Source of the DNA: a virus
Strand: one strand, 5' to 3'
Length of the DNA stretch: 40,026 nucleotides
Virus record (IMG/VR): IMGVR_UViG_3300043331_001462
Location: 1-40,026 of that record
Notes under the pieces: model-generated
What the model was told of the DNA's origin: nothing
The model's input: only the letters and a program-made list of their open reading frames with translations
The model's database searches: none
Made by a program: the position numbers and the translations under genes
In this document: piece by piece, positions 1 through 40,026 of the stretch
Position numbering within the stretch: the first letter of the stretch is position 1
Layout of the letters: every line of letters begins with the position of its first letter

Positions 1-97
1 CCCATGCCTAGAGATCAATCCCGCCGCGCTCGTGACCGCCGCTACGCGGCCGCAGTGGACCGGCAGATCAACGCCATCGCGATCAGCGAGGCGACCG
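1..97. repeat. Terminal direct repeat, copy 1 (identical to 39930..40026)
   Basis: 97/97 nt identity read directly between start and end of window. Confidence 0.95.
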
Positions 98-342
98 GCC
101 GGCCCGGCATCTATGCGCCGGTCGTGGACTTTCTACGTCCCGGGGACACCGCCGAGCAGTGGACGGCGGTCTGCGTGGACGACGACGGCACGCAGTACGA
201 CGACCACGACTGGACGGACTGGCGCGAGCGGCCAGCCGACATGGAGCCGGCCACCAGGCCGCATCACGTCCGGGCGTTGCGCTGGTGCCAGCGCTGTAAC
301 CGGTACGAGGCCCGACGTGAAGGGAGCCCTAAGCGTGCGTAG
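4..342 (+). CDS. Hypothetical protein (112 aa) with C-terminal CxxC
   Basis: ATG at 4. In the circular context it is preceded by GAGGAGGGA (39914..39922). Its stop overlaps the next gene start (GTGCGTAG). Confidence 0.65.
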   Translation: MPRDQSRRARDRRYAAAVDRQINAIAISEATGRPGIYAPVVDFLRPGDTAEQWTAVCVDDDGTQYDDHDWTDWRERPADMEPATRPHHVRALRWCQRCNRYEARREGSPKRA

Positions 343-4771: not shown

Positions 4772-5857
4772 GTGGTCACCGTGCCCTGGGTGAAGCTCGA
4801 CGACAAGCTGCCGATGTCCGTGAAGGTCCGCGGCCTGGCAGACCCAGAGGCGCGAGGAGACCGTGCCACCGCCCAGCGCAACGAGGCGCTCGGCCACTGG
4901 ACGCAGCTGCTCGCCTGGGTCGGTGCCGAGCGCACCGACGGCTTCCTCACCGCCGACGTGGCCGCCCTCTACGGCACCACCGCCAGCCTCAGACGGCTCC
5001 TGCGCGGCGTATTCGGCCGCTCGGCCCTGCTGCACAGCCGCGGCGACCTCTGCCCGTGCCTGGAAGGTCGCAAGTGGCCGGACGGCGCCGCGTACGCCAT
5101 CCACGACTACCTCGACCGCAACCCCAGCCGCGCCGAGAACGACGTCGCCAAGGCCCAGCGCCGCGAGCTGCGCGACCGCGAGCTGCGTGAGCAGGTACGC
5201 CGGCGCGACGCCGACCAGTGCCGCTACTGCGGCAAGGCGGTGCGCTGGAATGACCGGCGCTCGCCCGAAGGCGGTGTCCTGGACCACGTGCGACCGGACA
5301 TCGCCGCCGGCGCGGATAACCTCGTCGTGGCCTGCCGGGGCTGCAACACACGCAAGGGCAAGCGCAGCCCGGAGGCGGCCGGCATGCGCCTGCGACCCTT
5401 GCCCGGACCTACGACAGAGACCCGACCTATCTACGACGGACCTACGACAGAGACCCGACCTATCTACGACGGACCTACGACGGATTCAGAACCGGATTTA
5501 AAACCGACCACTGATCGGACCCAAAACCGTTCTGAAACCGGCGACAGATCCGACGCAGGTCGACCACCACCCCGCGCAGACCCACTTAGCAGCGCAAACG
5601 GCACCCAGACCGGGCCTTGGCACGCCCAAAATCCGACCTACGACGGCGTCTCAGAACAGACCCGCAGCGCCGGTACTGACGGCCCGGGACGGGACGGGAC
5701 GGGCATCCCTGAGGTAGTAGATCTTGCGTCCTCCGCACGGCTCGGGCCGCCCGGCACACGCCGCACGCCGGCCAACCCCAACCCGTACCTGAGATCCGCA
5801 CTGACCGGGCCCCAGCCGGAAGAGCACGCAGGCCACCCAGCGGAGGACCAACCGTGA
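4772..5857 (+). CDS. HNH endonuclease with N-terminal WVKLDD domain and long disordered repeat-containing tail
   Basis: HNH core is CRYCGKAVRW...LDHVRPDIAAGADNLVVACRGCNTRKGKRS. An alternative GTG start at 4781 lies 5 nt after AGGTGG. The tail has poor GC3. Confidence 0.8.
   Translation: MVTVPWVKLDDKLPMSVKVRGLADPEARGDRATAQRNEALGHWTQLLAWVGAERTDGFLTADVAALYGTTASLRRLLRGVFGRSALLHSRGDLCPCLEGRKWPDGAAYAIHDYLDRNPSRAENDVAKAQRRELRDRELREQVRRRDADQCRYCGKAVRWNDRRSPEGGVLDHVRPDIAAGADNLVVACRGCNTRKGKRSPEAAGMRLRPLPGPTTETRPIYDGPTTETRPIYDGPTTDSEPDLKPTTDRTQNRSETGDRSDAGRPPPRADPLSSANGTQTGPWHAQNPTYDGVSEQTRSAGTDGPGRDGTGIPEVVDLASSARLGPPGTRRTPANPNPYLRSALTGPQPEEHAGHPAEDQP
5405..5481. repeat. 33-bp tandem repeat x2.3 (GGACCTACGACAGAGACCCGACCTATCTACGAC)
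   Basis: Copies at 5405..5437 and 5438..5470, partial copy at 5471..5481. A degenerate related copy CCGACCTACGACGG lies at 5633..5646. Confidence 0.9.
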
Positions 5858-27887: not shown

Positions 27888-30041
27888 TCATCGATCCTCC
27901 TCGCTGGTTCGACGCTCCAGTGCGCGGCGCAGCGCGGCCAGATGCACGCCCTTGAGGACCTTGTTGTCGATGCGGACGTTCTTGCTCTCGATGCCCAGGT
28001 TCAGCGAGCGCAGCGTGTTGGAGATCGCGTCCGGGGTGGCGTTGGCGTACCGCTCGGGCAGCTGGTCGGCCATGCGCTCGGCCAGCTGCTGCCACGACAG
28101 AGCGGTCTCGGACGGCAGGAACGCATCGAGAGCATCCGCGAGCGGATCGCGTGCCTGCGCGCCGACCGTCTCGCCGCCGGCCATGCCGTCGAGCAGGCCG
28201 GCCCGCTCGCGCATCCGGCGCGCGGCGTGCAGGATCTTCTCGGCGTCCTGCCCGTCGGCCAGGTAGGTGCGCACGGTGGCGTTGGGCACCGGGGCGTCGT
28301 AGAGGATGCCGACGCCGCGGTACTCGTCGCCGGAGGGCAGCGCGCTGGAGTCGTAGCCCTCGGAGTAGGCGCCGCCACCGAGCACCAGGTCAGAGACCTG
28401 CCAGGCGCCCGTCTTGAGCGCAAAGCGGGTCAGGTGGTTGTCGCGGAAGTCCGTGAACAGCTTGGCCACCTTGCCGGTGGAGCCGATCCCAGACGGACGC
28501 TGAGTGGAGTCCAGCAGGATGACGCCGACCGACGGCCCGACCTTGACCAGGAAGACCAGCAGCTCGGCGATCTCCCGGTCGGTCTCCTCGTCGCCGGTGT
28601 TCAGGTACTCCTGGAACTCATCCAGGACGATCACCCAGACGGGCATGCGGTAGCGCGGGTTGCGGGCGATGTCCCTGGTCAGCTTGCCTTCCGGGCACAC
28701 GTCGGTGGGCAGCTCGGACAGGCGGGCGTTGCGCTGCAGGACGTCGCGCTTGGCGGCGCGCAGGGTGGCGCGCAGGTTCTCGATCGGATCGCCCTGGATC
28801 CGGTCGGGCAACAGCCCGAAGCCGAAGGTGTAGGCGACCAGGGCGAACTTGCGCCAGTCCGGGGAGCCCTTGCCGTCGAACACGGACAGCCGCACGTACG
28901 GATCGAGGGCGGCGAAAAGCGCCAGCAGGCGGGCGGTGAACGTCTTGCCCTTGCGCGGCTGCGCGCCGACCAGCACAGAAGTGAAGATCAGCGGCAGCAT
29001 GACGCGGCGGCCGCGCTCGTCGACGCCCAGCGGCGCGGCCCGCCAGATGTCGCGCGGCTTGCAGTCCAGCAGCGGCGTACGGCCGGCCGGGATGGACAGC
29101 GGGTCGACGTCGGCGACCCACAGCAGGTGCCGGCGCTGGGAGGTCTTGTCCCTGGTCAGGTACACCTGGGACAGCGACACGTCCAGGCCGGAGGCCAGCT
29201 TCTCGCGGGCCTTCATCGCGTCGGAGAACGTCACCCCGTACGGCAGGTCGACCACCACCTGCGATCCTGCGTCGAGCCGGTCGCGGGACATCTTCGACCC
29301 GAACTTGACCTGCTGGCCGGGCTTGTCCGGGTGGCCCAGGCCGGCGGAGTAGTACGCGCGCAGCACCACGTCGGCGTTGAGCACCCGGTGCCGGTTGGTG
29401 ACCACCGCGGCGGACACGATCGGCCGGTCGGCCGGTCGGCCCAGGTGCGCCAGGATCGGCACCAGGACCACCAGGACGACCCACTTCACCCAGCCCGGCG
29501 CGCCCAGCAGCAGCCACGCCACCGCGCCGACCAGGACCAGGACCTCGAGCGCCAACCACACGCCGCGGGCGCCGCGCGCCCGGCGGGCCTCAGTGTGCAG
29601 CTTCACCCACGTCTCGGCGTCGTTCTTGGTCGCCGCGTGCTGGCGCAAGCTGTGCGACTCCATCACCCAGTACCAGGCCAGCTGCCGGCCGGCCAGGCGC
29701 AGCAGCCCGACCACCGCCCACCACGCGGCCAGCAGCAGGTACAGCGGCGAGCGCACGGCGTGGTAGCTGAACCGGTAGCCGGTCAGCTTGGCCGTACGTA
29801 CGCCCGCGCGGCGTACGCCCTGCACGGTGCGCAGGTGCTCCGGGATGACCGGCCGCCGGTCCTGGCGCACCTTGGCCACCGAGTCGACCAGCACCGGCGT
29901 GGCCGGGCCCGGATCGTCGTCCAGGGCGACCTCGAAGCTGGTGTCGTACTCCTCCGGCAACGCCTCCGGTCGCGGCGTCACCTCGCCTGTGTCGGCGGCC
30001 GGCACGGCCACCTCGCGGCCAGGCTCGATCGGCTCGGTCAT
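27888..30041 (-). CDS. FtsK/SpoIIIE-family DNA translocase, TraB-like (717 aa)
   Basis: N-terminal TM helices are present. Walker A is GAQPRKGKT and Walker B is VWVIVLDEFQ. The C-terminus is wHTH-like. ATG 30041 follows AGGGGGCGG, and the longer ORF runs to 30122. Confidence 0.9.
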   Translation of the reverse strand: MTEPIEPGREVAVPAADTGEVTPRPEALPEEYDTSFEVALDDDPGPATPVLVDSVAKVRQDRRPVIPEHLRTVQGVRRAGVRTAKLTGYRFSYHAVRSPLYLLLAAWWAVVGLLRLAGRQLAWYWVMESHSLRQHAATKNDAETWVKLHTEARRARGARGVWLALEVLVLVGAVAWLLLGAPGWVKWVVLVVLVPILAHLGRPADRPIVSAAVVTNRHRVLNADVVLRAYYSAGLGHPDKPGQQVKFGSKMSRDRLDAGSQVVVDLPYGVTFSDAMKAREKLASGLDVSLSQVYLTRDKTSQRRHLLWVADVDPLSIPAGRTPLLDCKPRDIWRAAPLGVDERGRRVMLPLIFTSVLVGAQPRKGKTFTARLLALFAALDPYVRLSVFDGKGSPDWRKFALVAYTFGFGLLPDRIQGDPIENLRATLRAAKRDVLQRNARLSELPTDVCPEGKLTRDIARNPRYRMPVWVIVLDEFQEYLNTGDEETDREIAELLVFLVKVGPSVGVILLDSTQRPSGIGSTGKVAKLFTDFRDNHLTRFALKTGAWQVSDLVLGGGAYSEGYDSSALPSGDEYRGVGILYDAPVPNATVRTYLADGQDAEKILHAARRMRERAGLLDGMAGGETVGAQARDPLADALDAFLPSETALSWQQLAERMADQLPERYANATPDAISNTLRSLNLGIESKNVRIDNKVLKGVHLAALRRALERRTSEEDR

Positions 30042-30217
30042 GACCGCCCCCTGGCCGCGCCCTTGACCGCAGCGAAGCCCAGGTGCACCTGAGCCGGCAG
30101 CAGCAGCAGATCGGGCCGCCACTGGCTACCGGCCTCGGCGTCGGCCAGCAGCTTTGCGGCCGTCTGGGTGTGCTCGTCGGCGGTCATCGCCAGGATCTGC
30201 TCAACGTGTTCGTTCAC
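30038..30217 (-). CDS. Hypothetical small protein (59 aa), not in the ORF track
   Basis: GTG lies 5 nt after GAGGTGA. It has 4-nt overlaps with both neighbouring genes (GTGA and ATGA). Confidence 0.5.
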   Translation of the reverse strand: MNEHVEQILAMTADEHTQTAAKLLADAEAGSQWRPDLLLLPAQVHLGFAAVKGAARGRS

Positions 30218-31020
30218 GGGGTCACCTCGGTCAGGTCCGGGACGTGGCCGTTGACCGGCGTGGCCGGCCGCGTCGCGGCCAGATGGCGGCGCGCGGTGCG
30301 CTCGGACACGGACAGCCGCTTGGCCACGGTGGCCGCGTCGATGGCCGGGTCCTTGGCCACCAACTTGGCCACCAACTTGGCCGTGTCCGTGGCCACCGGT
30401 GGCCGGACAGGTGGCCGCAGCTTGGCCGGCTCGATGGCCACGTGGCCATCCATGGCCACAGGCTCAGATGGCCGCTCGATGGCCACGTGGCCATCCATGG
30501 CCACAGGCTCAGATGGCCGCTCGATGGCCGCGGGCGTGGCCGCGGTGACCGCCGCAGGCGCGGTGTCCGTGGCCACATGGCCGGCCACCGGCTCGCGGTC
30601 CACTGGCCGCCGCCGGCGACTGGTGGCGATTAGCGCGCCCGTGGCCATCACCATCAGGCCGTCGACCGCGAGCGGGCCGATCAACACCGTCAGTCGGTCG
30701 TCGTTGTAGAAGGCCAGCAGCCCGGACAGATGCCGGTACGACACGACGGCGGCAACCCCGGCGACCGGCAGCAGCCCAGCGAAGCGCAGCAGAACCCAGC
30801 GCCTGCCAGCTGGCCATTCGGTCCGCGCAAAGATCTCCACCGCGACGAACAGGGCGAGGGGCCAGAACACGGCACCTACGACCGCGCCGGCCGGGGGCTG
30901 CCATCCGTCCGGCGCGTCATTCGGGGGGACGTACGAGTGGGCCACGTTGGCCGCGATCGACGCCGCGCCACCTAGGAGCGCTCCGAGGTACGCCCATCCT
31001 CGGCCGGTCACGCGGGTCAC
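30214..31020 (-). CDS. DUF2637-like membrane protein with repeat linker and C-terminal HTH
   Basis: VVSYRHLSGLLAFYNDDRLTVLIGPLAVDGLMVMA matches the remembered DUF2637 pattern. The C-terminal HTH is VAKRLSVSERTARRHL. Confidence 0.7.
   Translation of the reverse strand: MTRVTGRGWAYLGALLGGAASIAANVAHSYVPPNDAPDGWQPPAGAVVGAVFWPLALFVAVEIFARTEWPAGRRWVLLRFAGLLPVAGVAAVVSYRHLSGLLAFYNDDRLTVLIGPLAVDGLMVMATGALIATSRRRRPVDREPVAGHVATDTAPAAVTAATPAAIERPSEPVAMDGHVAIERPSEPVAMDGHVAIEPAKLRPPVRPPVATDTAKLVAKLVAKDPAIDAATVAKRLSVSERTARRHLAATRPATPVNGHVPDLTEVTP
30430..30530. repeat. 45-bp tandem repeat x2.2 inside the DUF2637-like gene
   Basis: CTCGATGGCCACGTGGCCATCCATGGCCACAGGCTCAGATGGCCG at 30430..30474 and 30475..30519, plus a partial copy. 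It encodes IERPSEPVAMDGHVA twice. Confidence 0.9.
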
Positions 31021-31292
31021 CGGTCACGCACCTCCTCGACGGGCCGGGTCAGCTGGCGCATGGACACGGCCACGATGATGCAGACCAGGCCGGTCCCGGC
31101 GGCCAGGCAGCCGATGGCCATGGCCAGATGGCCGAGCCCCGCGGCGCCGCCGGCGGACAGCCACGCGCTCGCGAACAACGCGGCCATGACGGCCATCACT
31201 GTGGCCACCGTGACCACGGGGCGGCGGACAGACACTGGCCGGCCGCCGGACAGCTGGCCGCGCTCGGCGGCCTTCACACGCACATCGGTCAT
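31017..31292 (-). CDS. Membrane protein (2 TM, 91 aa), first gene of the transfer operon
   Basis: ATG at 31292. GTGA overlap with the next gene. Confidence 0.6.
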   Translation of the reverse strand: MTDVRVKAAERGQLSGGRPVSVRRPVVTVATVMAVMAALFASAWLSAGGAAGLGHLAMAIGCLAAGTGLVCIIVAVSMRQLTRPVEEVRDR

Positions 31293-31377: not shown

Positions 31378-31626
31378 ATGAGCCAACTCGCGAGACTTGG
31401 GGGTCGATCGGTGCCGGACGACGAGGAGTGGATCCCGGTGGGGCAGGCAGCGCGCCGACTGGGCCTGCACCCAGACAAGGTGCGTGCCCTCGCCGACTCC
31501 GGTCAGATTCGCTCTTGGCGGCCGCCCACCACCGGCCCGGGCCATGCACACCGGCGAGTGAGCTCGGCCGACGTGGAGCGCATCCGCCGAGAGATGCTGG
31601 GTGACCAGGGTGGAAGCCCCACCTGA
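31378..31626 (+). CDS. Excisionase-family (MerR-like) HTH protein
   Basis: WIPVGQAARRLGLHPDKVRALADSGQIRSWR...HRRVSSADVERI. An alternative GTG start at 31411 follows GGGGG. Confidence 0.7.
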   Translation: MSQLARLGGRSVPDDEEWIPVGQAARRLGLHPDKVRALADSGQIRSWRPPTTGPGHAHRRVSSADVERIRREMLGDQGGSPT

Positions 31627-31639
31627 CCGATCGGCCATA

Positions 31640-32548
31640 TCAATCATCCCAAAGAGACGCACCCCGCGTCCGGCCATGGCCGGACGCGGGGGTGCATTCT
31701 GTGTGTGCGTGTGTCCTGCAGAGGGCTACGCGACGGCGGGGAGCGTGCGGACGGCTAGTCGACGCTCCTCGCTGCTCACCTGGGTGTACCGCTCCGTCGT
31801 GTGCGATCGACGCGTGACCGAGAATCTCCTGCGTCGCGCGCAGGTTGCGCGAGCGGCGGTACGTCTCGCTGCCGCACCAGTGCCGCAGCATGTGCATCGT
31901 CACGTCTCGGAAGCCGAGCCGGGTCAGCTGGCGGCTGCCGTACATCGACAGCTTGTGCGCAGCCACGTGCGGCTCGTACCCCGGCAGGTGGAAGATCCGA
32001 CCGAGCGGCAGCGGCTCGACGAGGTGCCAGACCACCGGGTGCGTAGGCACCTCGCGCACCTTGTCGCCCTTGCCGCGGATCCACATCGACTCTTCGGTGA
32101 CGTCCTCCCGATCTAGGGTGACGATCTCCAGGCAGCGCAGGCCGGCGTACGCCGCGAGCCCGAAGTACGTCCGGTAGGGCGCCACCGCACGCCGCATGAT
32201 CTGGCCCAAGGCGGCGGTCGTCACCGGCCGCGGCGGAGGCTTCGGCACCCGGATGCGCGGCAGGCCGACGGACGGGTCCTGGTCGACCAGGCCCATCGTG
32301 AACTTCCACCGGCACCAGGCCTGGATGTGGAACAGGTACACGGCCCTGGTCGCGCGAGACAGACCAGGACGGGCCAGCCAGCTGGCCAGCCGTTGTGTCG
32401 TGGTTGCAGCGGGGTCGGTCCCCAGATACGTCGAAATGGCCCGGACCACTCGGGTCCGCGCCTGGATCGTTCTGGGTGACTGCCCTGCCGCTCGGAGGTG
32501 CTCTACGTGCACAGTCAGGTGCTCGGGAGCACAGCGAAGGGCTTCCAT
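31640..32548 (-). CDS. int: Tyrosine recombinase / integrase, apparently frameshifted before the catalytic Tyr
   Basis: RGKGDKVREVP, HMLRHW and LGHASIA lie in the main frame. The canonical continuation TTERYTQVSSEERRLAVRTLPAVA* lies in another frame (stop 31726..31728) after one extra nt near 31799..31804. Confidence 0.8.
   Translation of the reverse strand: MEALRCAPEHLTVHVEHLRAAGQSPRTIQARTRVVRAISTYLGTDPAATTTQRLASWLARPGLSRATRAVYLFHIQAWCRWKFTMGLVDQDPSVGLPRIRVPKPPPRPVTTAALGQIMRRAVAPYRTYFGLAAYAGLRCLEIVTLDREDVTEESMWIRGKGDKVREVPTHPVVWHLVEPLPLGRIFHLPGYEPHVAAHKLSMYGSRQLTRLGFRDVTMHMLRHWCGSETYRRSRNLRATQEILGHASIAHDGAVHPGEQRGASTSRPHAPRRRVALCRTHAHTECTPASGHGRTRGASLWDD
31660..31694. terminator. Bidirectional hairpin between convergent genes
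   Basis: CACCCCGCGTCCGGCC at GGCCGGACGCGGGG(G)TG, about 16-bp stem. Followed by a TG-rich tract at 31699..31714. Confidence 0.65.
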
Positions 32549-32578: not shown

Positions 32579-32938
32579 TTATGCCGCGTTTGGCCAGGCG
32601 TCGCCACCCGGTCGTACCAGGTCGGATCGCCTAGGTGGCCTAGTTGCGCTACGTGCGCCAATCGCAGCGGAGCGTAGCCAAGAACTAGTACGTACGCCTC
32701 GGTACGCAGTCCGTCTGTCTGTGAGTTCGTCCCGCGTGGGCAAGAGGTCTTGGACCTCAACTCCCAGCTCGCTGGCGATGCGCTCCAGGTCGTTGAGGTC
32801 GATCGCCTGCCGGCCGTTGAGGCGATAGGACACCCACGCGTTGGAGACGTTTAGGCGCCGAGCGAGCTGCTGCCCTGTGATCCGGCGCCGGGCCATCATG
32901 GCCCGGATTTCTTCCGCCACTAGATCCGTAAGAGCCAT
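32579..32938 (-). CDS. XRE-family HTH repressor (CI-like position)
   Basis: The start was chosen by alignment to the divergent paralog (MALTDLVAEEIRAMMARRRITGQQLARRL...). The ORF is open up to 33010. The last ~50 codons have poor GC3. Confidence 0.7.
   Translation of the reverse strand: MALTDLVAEEIRAMMARRRITGQQLARRLNVSNAWVSYRLNGRQAIDLNDLERIASELGVEVQDLLPTRDELTDRRTAYRGVRTSSWLRSAAIGARSATRPPRRSDLVRPGGDAWPNAA
32774..32806. repeat. 33-bp inverted repeat, arm 1 (partner 33204..33236)
   Basis: GGCGATGCGCTCCAGGTCGTTGAGGTCGATCGC is the exact reverse complement of 33204..33236. Confidence 0.9.
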
Positions 32939-33065
32939 AGGTCTATCCGTCGGTGTGGTGGTCATACCGCGATGTTCGGCCGTCTGGACGTAACCGTCAA
33001 GGTGATTCACAAAATCTTGGCATCAGTCTCTTGACGGCTTTAGCTATAGCGTAAACCATGGCGCT

Positions 33066-33290
33066 ATGCCCGACAGCTTGCAGACATACGTTGCGGCCGA
33101 GATTCGCGCCGAGATGGCTCGCCGCCGGATCACAGGGCAACAACTAGCCGGCGCGCTAGGACGCAGCAACGCCTGGATCTCAGTGCGGCTCGCTGGCAAG
33201 CAAGCGATCGACCTCAACGACCTGGAGCGCATCGCCGATGCGCTGGACGTGTCGGCCGACCAACTCCTGCCAGCGAGGTCCGCAGCATGA
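33066..33290 (+). CDS. XRE-family HTH regulator (Cro-like position), paralog of 32579..32938
   Basis: EIRAEMARRRITGQQLAGALGRSNAWISVRLAGKQAIDLNDLERIADAL. It is divergent from the other XRE gene. Confidence 0.8.
   Translation: MPDSLQTYVAAEIRAEMARRRITGQQLAGALGRSNAWISVRLAGKQAIDLNDLERIADALDVSADQLLPARSAA
33204..33236. repeat. 33-bp inverted repeat, arm 2
   Basis: GCGATCGACCTCAACGACCTGGAGCGCATCGCC. Confidence 0.9.
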
Positions 33291-39929: not shown

Positions 39930-40026
39930 CCCATGCCTAGAGATCAATCCCGCCGCGCTCGTGACCGCCGCTACGCGGCCGCAGTGGACCGGCAGATCAA
40001 CGCCATCGCGATCAGCGAGGCGACCG
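39930..40026. repeat. Terminal direct repeat, copy 2 (contains the truncated duplicate start of the gene at 4..342, ATG 39933)
   Basis: Identical to 1..97. Confidence 0.95.

What the first reader, a model, noticed from the sequence alone, without database searches (positions are those of the whole stretch)
31726..31830. Integrase catalytic tyrosine is out of frame (single extra nucleotide)
Seen in the sequence:
- The minus-strand integrase reads ...HMLRHWCGSETYRRSRNLRATQEILGHASIA and then continues as HDGAVHPGEQRG... down to 31640.
- Skipping one nucleotide near 31799..31804 (minus-strand sequence gca-c-acg-acg) gives TTERYTQVSSEERRLAVRTLPAVA* with a stop at 31726..31728.
- That alternative reading is the canonical LGHASIxTTxRYT(H/Q)V block containing the nucleophilic Tyr, whose codon is at 31786..31788.
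- The in-frame extended tail has poor GC3 and reads straight through the 16-bp terminator hairpin at 31660..31694.

Inference, either of two explanations:
- It is an assembly or sequencing indel.
- The integrase is genuinely inactivated. That would fit an element maintained as a free circle (phage-plasmid lifestyle) rather than integrated.
Basis: partly seen in the sequence, partly recalled or inferred. Interest (0 to 1): 0.6.

Follow-up and report, generated by a model that had tools for sequence, protein, structure and literature searches.

The report
Frameshifted integrase in soil actinophage
A complete 40-kb phage genome from soil carries a real one-base insertion that cuts the catalytic tyrosine off its integrase; because this phage probably needs integration to switch on its repressor, the variant is most likely unable to form lysogens and grows only lytically. 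This is an ordinary loss-of-function mutation caught in nature.

Summary
The minus-strand integrase (ATG 32548) has an extra A at 31802. Relatives read ATC-GCC-ACG-ACG-GAG; the window reads ATC-GC[A]C-ACG-ACG-GAG. Skipping it gives ...LGHASIATTERYTQVSSEERRLAVRTLPAVA*, 23/24 identical to the tail of intact homologues that are 88-89% identical overall.

It is not an assembly error. The same frameshifted gene lies on contigs from three JGI soil samples. Logan contigs, made with another assembler, carry the extra base in two runs at depths of about 9 and 5. No homologue shares the shifted tail.

The window is a whole phage genome: 97-nt terminal repeat, CheckV 100%, attP-form junction, no host DNA.

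The context is cro <- -> rep -> int. Rep has a roughly 50-aa tail ending -NAA and the restored Int ends -AVA. The best cultured and structural relatives are mycobacteriophage BPs-type and Brujita integrases. In related proviruses int is the first gene and a shortened, untagged rep is the last. This is the layout of integration-dependent immunity.

Best reading (about 0.6): a recent int-null, lysogeny-defective variant. The phage-plasmid idea has no positive support (no ParA, ParB or second recombinase). This scan has already found integration-dependent immunity cassettes on other DNA. attB was not found. Interest is low to moderate.

The parts
31802..31802 (-). Inserted base (A on the coding strand) that shifts the integrase frame. 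It creates GCACACG where relatives have GCCACG or GCTACG.
   Evidence: Codon alignment with L004, L007 and L008; 1-nt gap in the alignment with phage Bakery; 'left out 1 at 31801' appears only in a 37-nt piece of an unrelated contig.
31640..32548 (-). Integrase ORF as it stands: 302 aa. Residues 1-249 are authentic; a 53-aa nonsense tail follows. It retains R138, K160, H219, R222 and H245 and lacks Y254.
   Evidence: invariant columns.
31726..31800 (-). Out-of-frame remnant of the integrase C-terminus, TTERYTQVSSEERRLAVRTLPAVA*. It holds the Tyr nucleophile codon (31786-31788) and the -AVA end.
   Evidence: GC3 is 0.88. Against L004 it shows 6 synonymous and 1 non-synonymous difference in this frame.
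31660..31695 (.). Palindromic hairpin between the convergent int and xis-like genes (terminator-like). It is now translated by the shifted frame.
   Evidence: -41.8 kcal/mol; sequence.
31378..31626 (+). Xis-like HTH_17 gene convergent with int.
   Evidence: Pfam HTH_17 at 26.4 bits, just under the 27-bit cut-off. The same gene in the same position carries HTH_17 in L008 and in the contig of P0012.
32579..32965 (-). Repressor-position XRE-family gene (128 aa from ATG 32965; the ORF is open to 33010). An HTH head is followed by a roughly 50-aa tail ending ...RPPRRSDLVRPGGDAWPNAA. Its stop lies 30 nt before the int ATG.
   Evidence: Pfam HTH_26, HTH_31 and HTH_3. The tail is conserved in L004, L007 and L008 and ends in -AA.
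32681..32700 (-). Candidate attP core: the 20-nt block TAGTTCTTGGCTACGCTCCG inside the rep tail (it codes for SSWLRS). It is identical in the window, L004 and L100 while the flanks diverge. Coordinates are approximate to within about 2 nt.
   Evidence: Alignments. This is an inference only: no attB was found.
33066..33290 (+). Cro-position XRE gene (74 aa), divergent from rep and paralogous to its HTH head.
   Evidence: Pfam HTH_31; inverted repeats I1 and I2.
1..97 (.). Direct terminal repeat, identical to 39930-40026. The genome unit is 39,929 bp and closes on itself.
   Evidence: IMG/VR class 'direct terminal repeats' and CheckV completeness 100%.

Best explanation
The window is the complete, non-integrated genome of a temperate-type siphovirus of a high-GC soil actinomycete. 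Its small tyrosine integrase has a genuine, recent 1-nt insertion 16 codons before the catalytic tyrosine.

The product keeps the DNA-binding part and five of the six active-site residues. It lacks the Tyr nucleophile, the C-terminal helix and its natural -AVA end. It therefore cannot cut or join DNA.

The integrase sits in a cro <- -> rep -> int cassette of the integration-dependent-immunity type. In that type attP lies in the 3' part of rep, and the virally encoded repressor carries a C-terminal degradation tail that only integration removes. If this phage follows that scheme, it cannot stabilise its repressor without Int. It cannot establish lysogeny and propagates lytically, as a natural clear-plaque-type variant.

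Shown here: the insertion, its reproducibility, the loss of Tyr, the free attP-form genome and the cassette layout.

Inferred: the position of attP inside rep in this phage, proteolysis of the tailed Rep, and the lytic phenotype.
For: - Extra base and restored motif.
- Intact homologues at 88-89% identity end ...ATTERYTQVSSEERRLAVxALPAVA. None of the 82 homologues has the shifted tail.
- The same allele is found in 3 JGI samples and in Logan contigs of 2 runs.
- The mutation is recent. The restored-frame tail has GC3 0.88 and 6 synonymous versus 1 non-synonymous difference from L004.
- The genome is free: 97-nt DTR, 100% complete, and rep-int contiguous. An X1 contig bridges 31680-32803.
- There is only one recombinase: PF00589 matches once and Resolvase not at all.
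- Cassette layout: rep, int and the divergent cro. Rep tails end -NAA, -SAAA or -PAAA in relatives, and many family members end -AA. Int relatives end -AVA, -AVAA or -TLAA.
- The best cultured matches are cluster G (Angel/BPs-type gene 32), Rem711, Weirdo19 and Gordonia phages at 34-35% identity. Angel has the same gp34/gp33/gp32 layout. The best PDB match is 5vfz_A 'Gp33', E 1.5e-25.
- In proviruses G003, G007 and G009 int is the first gene. A rep-like gene is the last, on the same strand and pointing outward. It ends 12-20 aa after the HTH without -AA.
- 19 of 80 related IMG/VR loci begin exactly at int.
Against: - attB was not found, so the position of attP inside rep is not shown for this phage. 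The 20-nt block may be conserved for another reason.
- No tRNA-like segment was found in the rep tail.
- Unlike the canonical BPs system, an Xis-like gene sits next to int.
- The supporting proviruses are only 36-46% identical in Int and lack the TraB module.
- The genome holds a second small repressor/operator unit and a TraB/clt module (earlier notes). These could support another way of persisting.
- Only contigs were laid, not raw reads. A minority wild-type allele cannot be excluded, and the Logan runs are probably the same libraries as the JGI assemblies.
Confidence: 0.6

Rival explanations
1. Sequencing or assembly artefact: the true genome has one base fewer and the integrase is intact.
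For: The downstream frame is perfectly preserved: GC3 0.88 and 23/24 residues as in relatives. That is what an artefact would look like. All data are probably from one sequencing campaign and one technology.
Against: The same insertion appears in contigs of three samples and in contigs from a second assembler in two runs, at word depths 9 and 4.8 with no gap. The site is not a homopolymer. The contig lengths of 151 suggest short reads, for which such indels are rare (established knowledge). The other long genes of the contig are intact.
Confidence: 0.05
2. The mutation is genuine, but the phage persists as an extrachromosomal replicon. This could be a phage-plasmid or an AICE-like free circle, possibly spread by its TraB/clt module, and not a purely lytic variant.
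For: The genome is free and closes on itself. It has an FtsK/TraB-like gene and a DUF2637 gene next to int (earlier notes e1-3415205 and e1-3415206).
Against: No ParA (AAA_31) and no ParB_N were found. If immunity is integration-dependent, the tailed Rep is unstable without integration (PMC3694055). Relatives with intact Int carry the same TraB module, so that module does not replace integration.
Confidence: 0.15
3. The mutation is genuine and the phage remains temperate. Immunity here would not depend on integration (for example if the tailed Rep is stable), so the mutant gives abortive or unstable lysogens and is simply a decaying allele in the population.
For: attP inside rep is not proven for this phage. 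The Xis-like gene departs from the canonical system.
Against: Three features fit the integration-dependent design: the conserved -AA Rep tail linked to the int module even behind an unrelated HTH head (L007), the truncated provirus Rep forms, and the BPs/Brujita-type Int.
Confidence: 0.15
4. Recoding: ribosomes restore the frame. One route would be a -2 slip of tRNA-His on the CACAC created by the insertion, giving low-level active Int with one extra His.
For: The sequence GCACACG allows CAC to re-pair with CAC two bases back (read).
Against: There is no known slippery motif or stimulator. No homologue has this arrangement, so it is not a conserved programmed site. There is no homopolymer for transcriptional slippage.
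Confidence: 0.03

Closest known systems
Integration-dependent immunity cassettes of mycobacteriophages BPs (cluster G), Brujita (I1), Charlie (N) and cluster P, and of Gordonia phages (PMC3694055, PMC4557955, PMC5559632)
   Same: The layout is cro divergent from rep, with rep followed directly by int on the same strand (Angel gp34/gp33/gp32). The Int is the best cultured-phage match at 34-35% identity, and the best solved structure is 5vfz_A 'Gp33'. The viral Rep has a C-terminal extension ending in an ssrA-like -AA. In related proviruses Rep and Int lie at opposite ends, with Rep shortened. A catalytically dead Int is reported to abolish lysogeny (PMC3694055).
   Different: The host is probably a 71% GC, Micromonospora-type actinomycete. 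An Xis-like HTH_17 gene is convergent with int. The Int is shorter (273 aa against 398 aa as annotated in Angel). No tRNA-like core was recognised and attB is unknown. Here the Int is naturally frameshifted.
Naturally occurring or engineered lytic derivatives of temperate actinophages (for example D29 as a repressor-deletion relative of L5; from my own knowledge)
   Same: A temperate-type genome lost a lysogeny function and propagates lytically.
   Different: Here the lesion is a single-base insertion in int, not a deletion of the repressor. The phenotype is inferred, not observed.
Actinomycete integrative and conjugative elements (pSAM2, SLP1 type) with int-xis next to TraB
   Same: The int, xis-like, DUF2637 and FtsK/TraB-like genes are neighbours.
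   Different: The window is a full tailed-phage genome with terminase, portal, capsid and tail genes. Its int belongs to the BPs/Brujita type, with rep upstream.

Membership tests
Tyrosine recombinase / phage integrase (PF00589) | Catalytic domain matches the family profile above its cut-off | tested here: met
   45.7 bits as it stands and 60.5 bits read through; cut-off 27.1.
Tyrosine recombinase / phage integrase (PF00589) | Active-site residues R, K, H-x-x-R and H/W in frame | tested here: met
   R138, K160, H219, R222 and H245 are invariant columns and lie before the shift.
Tyrosine recombinase / phage integrase (PF00589) | Tyr nucleophile in frame with the rest of the protein | tested here: not met
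   The Y254 codon (31786-31788) is in the +1 frame relative to the ORF. The gene is a family member by descent, but its product cannot be an active recombinase.
Integration-dependent immunity system | rep and int adjacent on one strand, with a divergent cro-like gene | tested here: met
   The same layout is seen in L004, L007, L008 and L099 and in phage Angel.
Integration-dependent immunity system | attP core inside the rep open reading frame | tested here: inconclusive
   A 20-nt block in the rep tail is perfectly conserved. In related proviruses the junction falls between the rep HTH and int. No attB or prophage of this phage was found.
Integration-dependent immunity system | Virally encoded Rep carries a C-terminal degradation tag that the prophage form lacks | tested here: inconclusive
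   The viral forms end -NAA, -SAAA or -PAAA. The provirus forms end ...DRSG...LNAT and ...TTGP. Proteolysis itself cannot be tested with these tools.
Integration-dependent immunity system | Int C-terminally tagged, small, without an arm-binding domain | tested here: inconclusive
   The restored Int is 273 aa and ends -LPAVA; relatives end -AVAA or -TLAA. It aligns with Brujita-type 'Gp33' over residues 22-267. The function of the tag was not tested.
Phage-plasmid | Partition system (ParA/ParB or equivalent) | tested here: not met
   No AAA_31 and no ParB_N match in the whole genome. Controls matched in 14 and 10 of 14 genomes.
Programmed ribosomal frameshift | Shift site conserved among homologues, with a slippery motif | tested here: not met
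   All 82 homologues are in one frame, and the relatives' DNA has one base fewer.

The most novel reading that the evidence does not exclude
The int-null genome is not a dead end or a purely lytic mutant. It would be a phage that has switched to an extrachromosomal life, kept and spread between hyphae by its own TraB/clt conjugation module. The frameshift would then mark a natural transition from an integrative prophage to a phage-conjugative-plasmid hybrid.
Probability: 0.08. Interest if true: 0.65.

Novelty: new member of a known kind. Interest (0 to 1): 0.3.

Why it matters
It shows that a single-base lesion seen in a metagenomic virus record can be checked against other samples and assemblers and turn out to be real.

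If the inferred switch is right, this is a natural example of a temperate phage made virulent by loss of Int alone. That outcome is predicted, and has been shown in the laboratory, for integration-dependent immunity. It also bears on how uncultured viruses are classed: 'has an integrase' would wrongly label this one temperate.

It adds a soil actinophage group, which also carries a TraB module, to the phages with this compact switch. The mutation itself is an ordinary loss of function.

Tried and rejected
- Search for attB with the 19-mer AGTTCTTGGCTACGCTCCG gave no match in viral contigs. In metagenome contigs there was one chance match, in an unrelated low-GC contig with no tRNA and no similarity to the window.
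- I could not obtain a genome handle for an actinobacterium, so host genomes could not be scanned.
- tRNA and Rfam scans of the rep tail found no tRNA. The only hit was a sub-threshold sul1 match at E 4.6, taken as chance.
- Megablast of the first 20 kb against cultured phages found no match.
- The TraB protein was not found in the five proviruses used for the layout argument. They share the cassette type and a distant terminase, not the whole phage.
- Read laying gave contigs only. Parts without cover, and the 37-nt piece lacking the extra base, come from other organisms and say nothing about allele frequency.
- A coarse GC3 frame plot showed no other obvious frame breaks but is too blunt to prove their absence.

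Full report
**Observation.** On the minus strand an ORF runs from ATG 32548 to a stop at 31640-31642. It is 302 aa and ends ...HMLRHWCGSETYRRSRNLRATQEILGHASIA-HDGAVHPGEQRG...SLWDD. Window 31726-31800 (-) translates to TTERYTQVSSEERRLAVRTLPAVA*. Reading GCAC as one step yields a 273-aa protein, P0004, that ends at 31726-31728. The Tyr codon lies at 31786-31788. The Pfam Phage_integrase score rises from 45.7 to 60.5 bits, and the match extends to the end of the profile. GC3 is 0.87 in the body, 0.88 in the restored tail and 0.60 in the tail as actually read. That tail crosses a -41.8 kcal/mol hairpin.

**Where the extra base is.** Alignment with Gordonia phage Bakery int leaves one 1-nt gap at GCA[C]ACG. 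Three closer relatives read ATC GCC/GCT ACG ACS GAG. The window reads ATC GC[A]C ACG ACG GAG, so the extra base is an A at 31802 on the coding strand, and it is not in a homopolymer. In the restored frame the tail differs from L004 at 6 synonymous sites and 1 non-synonymous site. For almost all of the divergence between the two phages the tail was therefore read in the restored frame. The shift is recent.

**Artefact or real.** The protein search found 82 homologues. The nearest (88-89% identical; L004 is a 33.5-kb contig) end ...ATTERYTQVSSEERRLAVxALPAVA, and none shares the HDGAVHPG continuation. The window's own gene call (P0007) lies on three JGI contigs from three samples. The two other contigs are 100% identical to the window over 6.7 kb and 1.1 kb. 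Logan contigs, built by another assembler, span the site without any difference or gap: in run X1 a 1124-nt contig at depth 9, and in run X2 a 675-nt contig at depth 4.8. The only record lacking the base is a 37-nt match within an unrelated 376-nt contig. These runs are probably the same libraries as the JGI assemblies. What is independent is therefore the samples and the assembler, not the technology. Contigs also cannot give allele frequencies. I put an artefact at about 5%.

**What the record is.** The window is the whole record. It has a 97-nt direct terminal repeat, is classed by IMG/VR as DTR, and has CheckV completeness of 100%. It encodes a large terminase, portal, major head protein, tail proteins and a tape-measure-like protein. 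It also encodes an FtsK/TraB-like protein and a DUF2637 protein beside int; earlier notes of this scan described these as a conjugation module. There is no host DNA, and rep-int is contiguous (the attP form). Int is needed for both integration and excision. A genome with a dead int and an intact attP junction must therefore have been replicating outside the chromosome since the mutation arose.

**Context of int.** Directly upstream on the same strand, 30 nt from the int ATG, lies an XRE-family gene (32579..32965). Divergent from it is a paralogous 74-aa XRE gene (33066..33290). Convergent with int is an HTH_17 Xis-like gene. The upstream Rep has an HTH head followed by a tail of about 50 aa...SSWLRS...RPPRRSDLVRPGGDAWPNAA. 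The same tail, always ending in -AA, follows the rep genes of L004, L008 and L099. It also follows the rep of L007, whose HTH head is unrelated. Tail and int therefore travel as one module. Many more family members end -AA. Int relatives end -AVA, -AVAA, -TVAA or -TLAA. Inside the tail a 20-nt block, TAGTTCTTGGCTACGCTCCG, is identical in the window, L004 and L100 while the flanks diverge. I take it as the candidate attP core.

**Comparison with known systems.** The best cultured-phage matches of the read-through Int are cluster G mycobacteriophages (Angel and relatives, gene 32), Rem711, Weirdo19 and Gordonia phages, at 34-35% identity. Angel has the same gp34 / gp33 repressor / gp32 integrase layout. 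The best solved structure is 5vfz_A 'Gp33', E 1.5e-25. These phages use integration-dependent immunity. [quoted passage not shown] Integration yields a shorter, stable, active Rep. Int is also tagged. A catalytically defective Int abolishes lysogeny (PMC3694055, PMC4557955).

I tested the layout on relatives in IMG/VR.
- Of 80 related loci, 19 start exactly at int.
- About 30 have a Rep-family ORF ending within about 135 nt of int.
- In proviruses G003, G007 and G009, int is the first gene. A Rep-like gene is the last gene, on the same strand and pointing outward. It ends 12-20 aa after the HTH, without -AA.

This is the expected prophage geometry. However, these proviruses are only 36-46% identical in Int and lack TraB.

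**Consequence.** The shifted product keeps R138, K160, H219, R222 and H245 and loses Y254, so it cannot catalyse recombination. There is no second recombinase and no ParA or ParB. The most likely state is a lysogeny-defective, lytically propagating variant, at confidence about 0.6. The rivals are:
- an episomal or conjugative carrier state, about 0.15;
- a temperate phage whose immunity does not depend on integration, about 0.15;
- an artefact, about 0.05;
- recoding by a -2 slip on CACAC, about 0.03.

**Limits.** attB was not found and host genomes could not be scanned. No tRNA-like core was seen. Other agents of this scan have reported 5'-tRNA cores in similar cassettes, which I could not test here. 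The phenotype is inferred.

**Novelty.** The mutation type is ordinary. Integration-dependent immunity is known, and this scan has already found it on other DNA. This is a new member of a known kind, with a modest ecological point: an integrase gene in a viral contig does not guarantee a temperate virus.

Noticed in passing
window 30429-30518: A perfect 45-nt tandem duplication inside the DUF2637-like gene (30214..31020, -). It repeats a 15-aa peptide.
   Followed up: no
window 5404-5469: A perfect 33-nt tandem duplication within the ORF 4772..5857 (HNH / replication-initiator-like).
   Followed up: no
window 33066-33290; L004 9185-9412: The cro-position proteins also end in -SAA (...LLPARSAA, ...LLTARSAA), like the Rep tails. 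Possibly all three switch proteins are protease-tagged.
   Followed up: no
L007 608-1081 versus window 32579-32965: The Rep tail (SSSWLRS...RPP.R...TRPG...AA) and int are kept as one module behind an unrelated HTH head. This implies modular exchange of immunity specificity at the head/tail boundary.
   Followed up: partly
window 27888-31292; L004, L007, L008 and the contig of P0012: The order int, xis-like, DUF2637, small genes and a TraB/FtsK-like gene of about 700 aa is conserved in all close relatives with intact int. The conjugation-type module is therefore a stable part of this phage group and not a replacement for integration.
   Followed up: partly
window 1-97 and 39930-40026: The 97-nt terminal repeat runs into the first ORF (4..342). 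It may be an assembler overlap of a circular or concatemeric template and not a physical terminal repeat.
   Followed up: no
PDB 5vfz_A versus P0004: In the alignment the solved 'Gp33' chain reads TEIATRV where the query has TERYTQV, so it has Ala at the position of the catalytic Tyr. I could not tell whether this is a crystallisation mutant.
   Followed up: no
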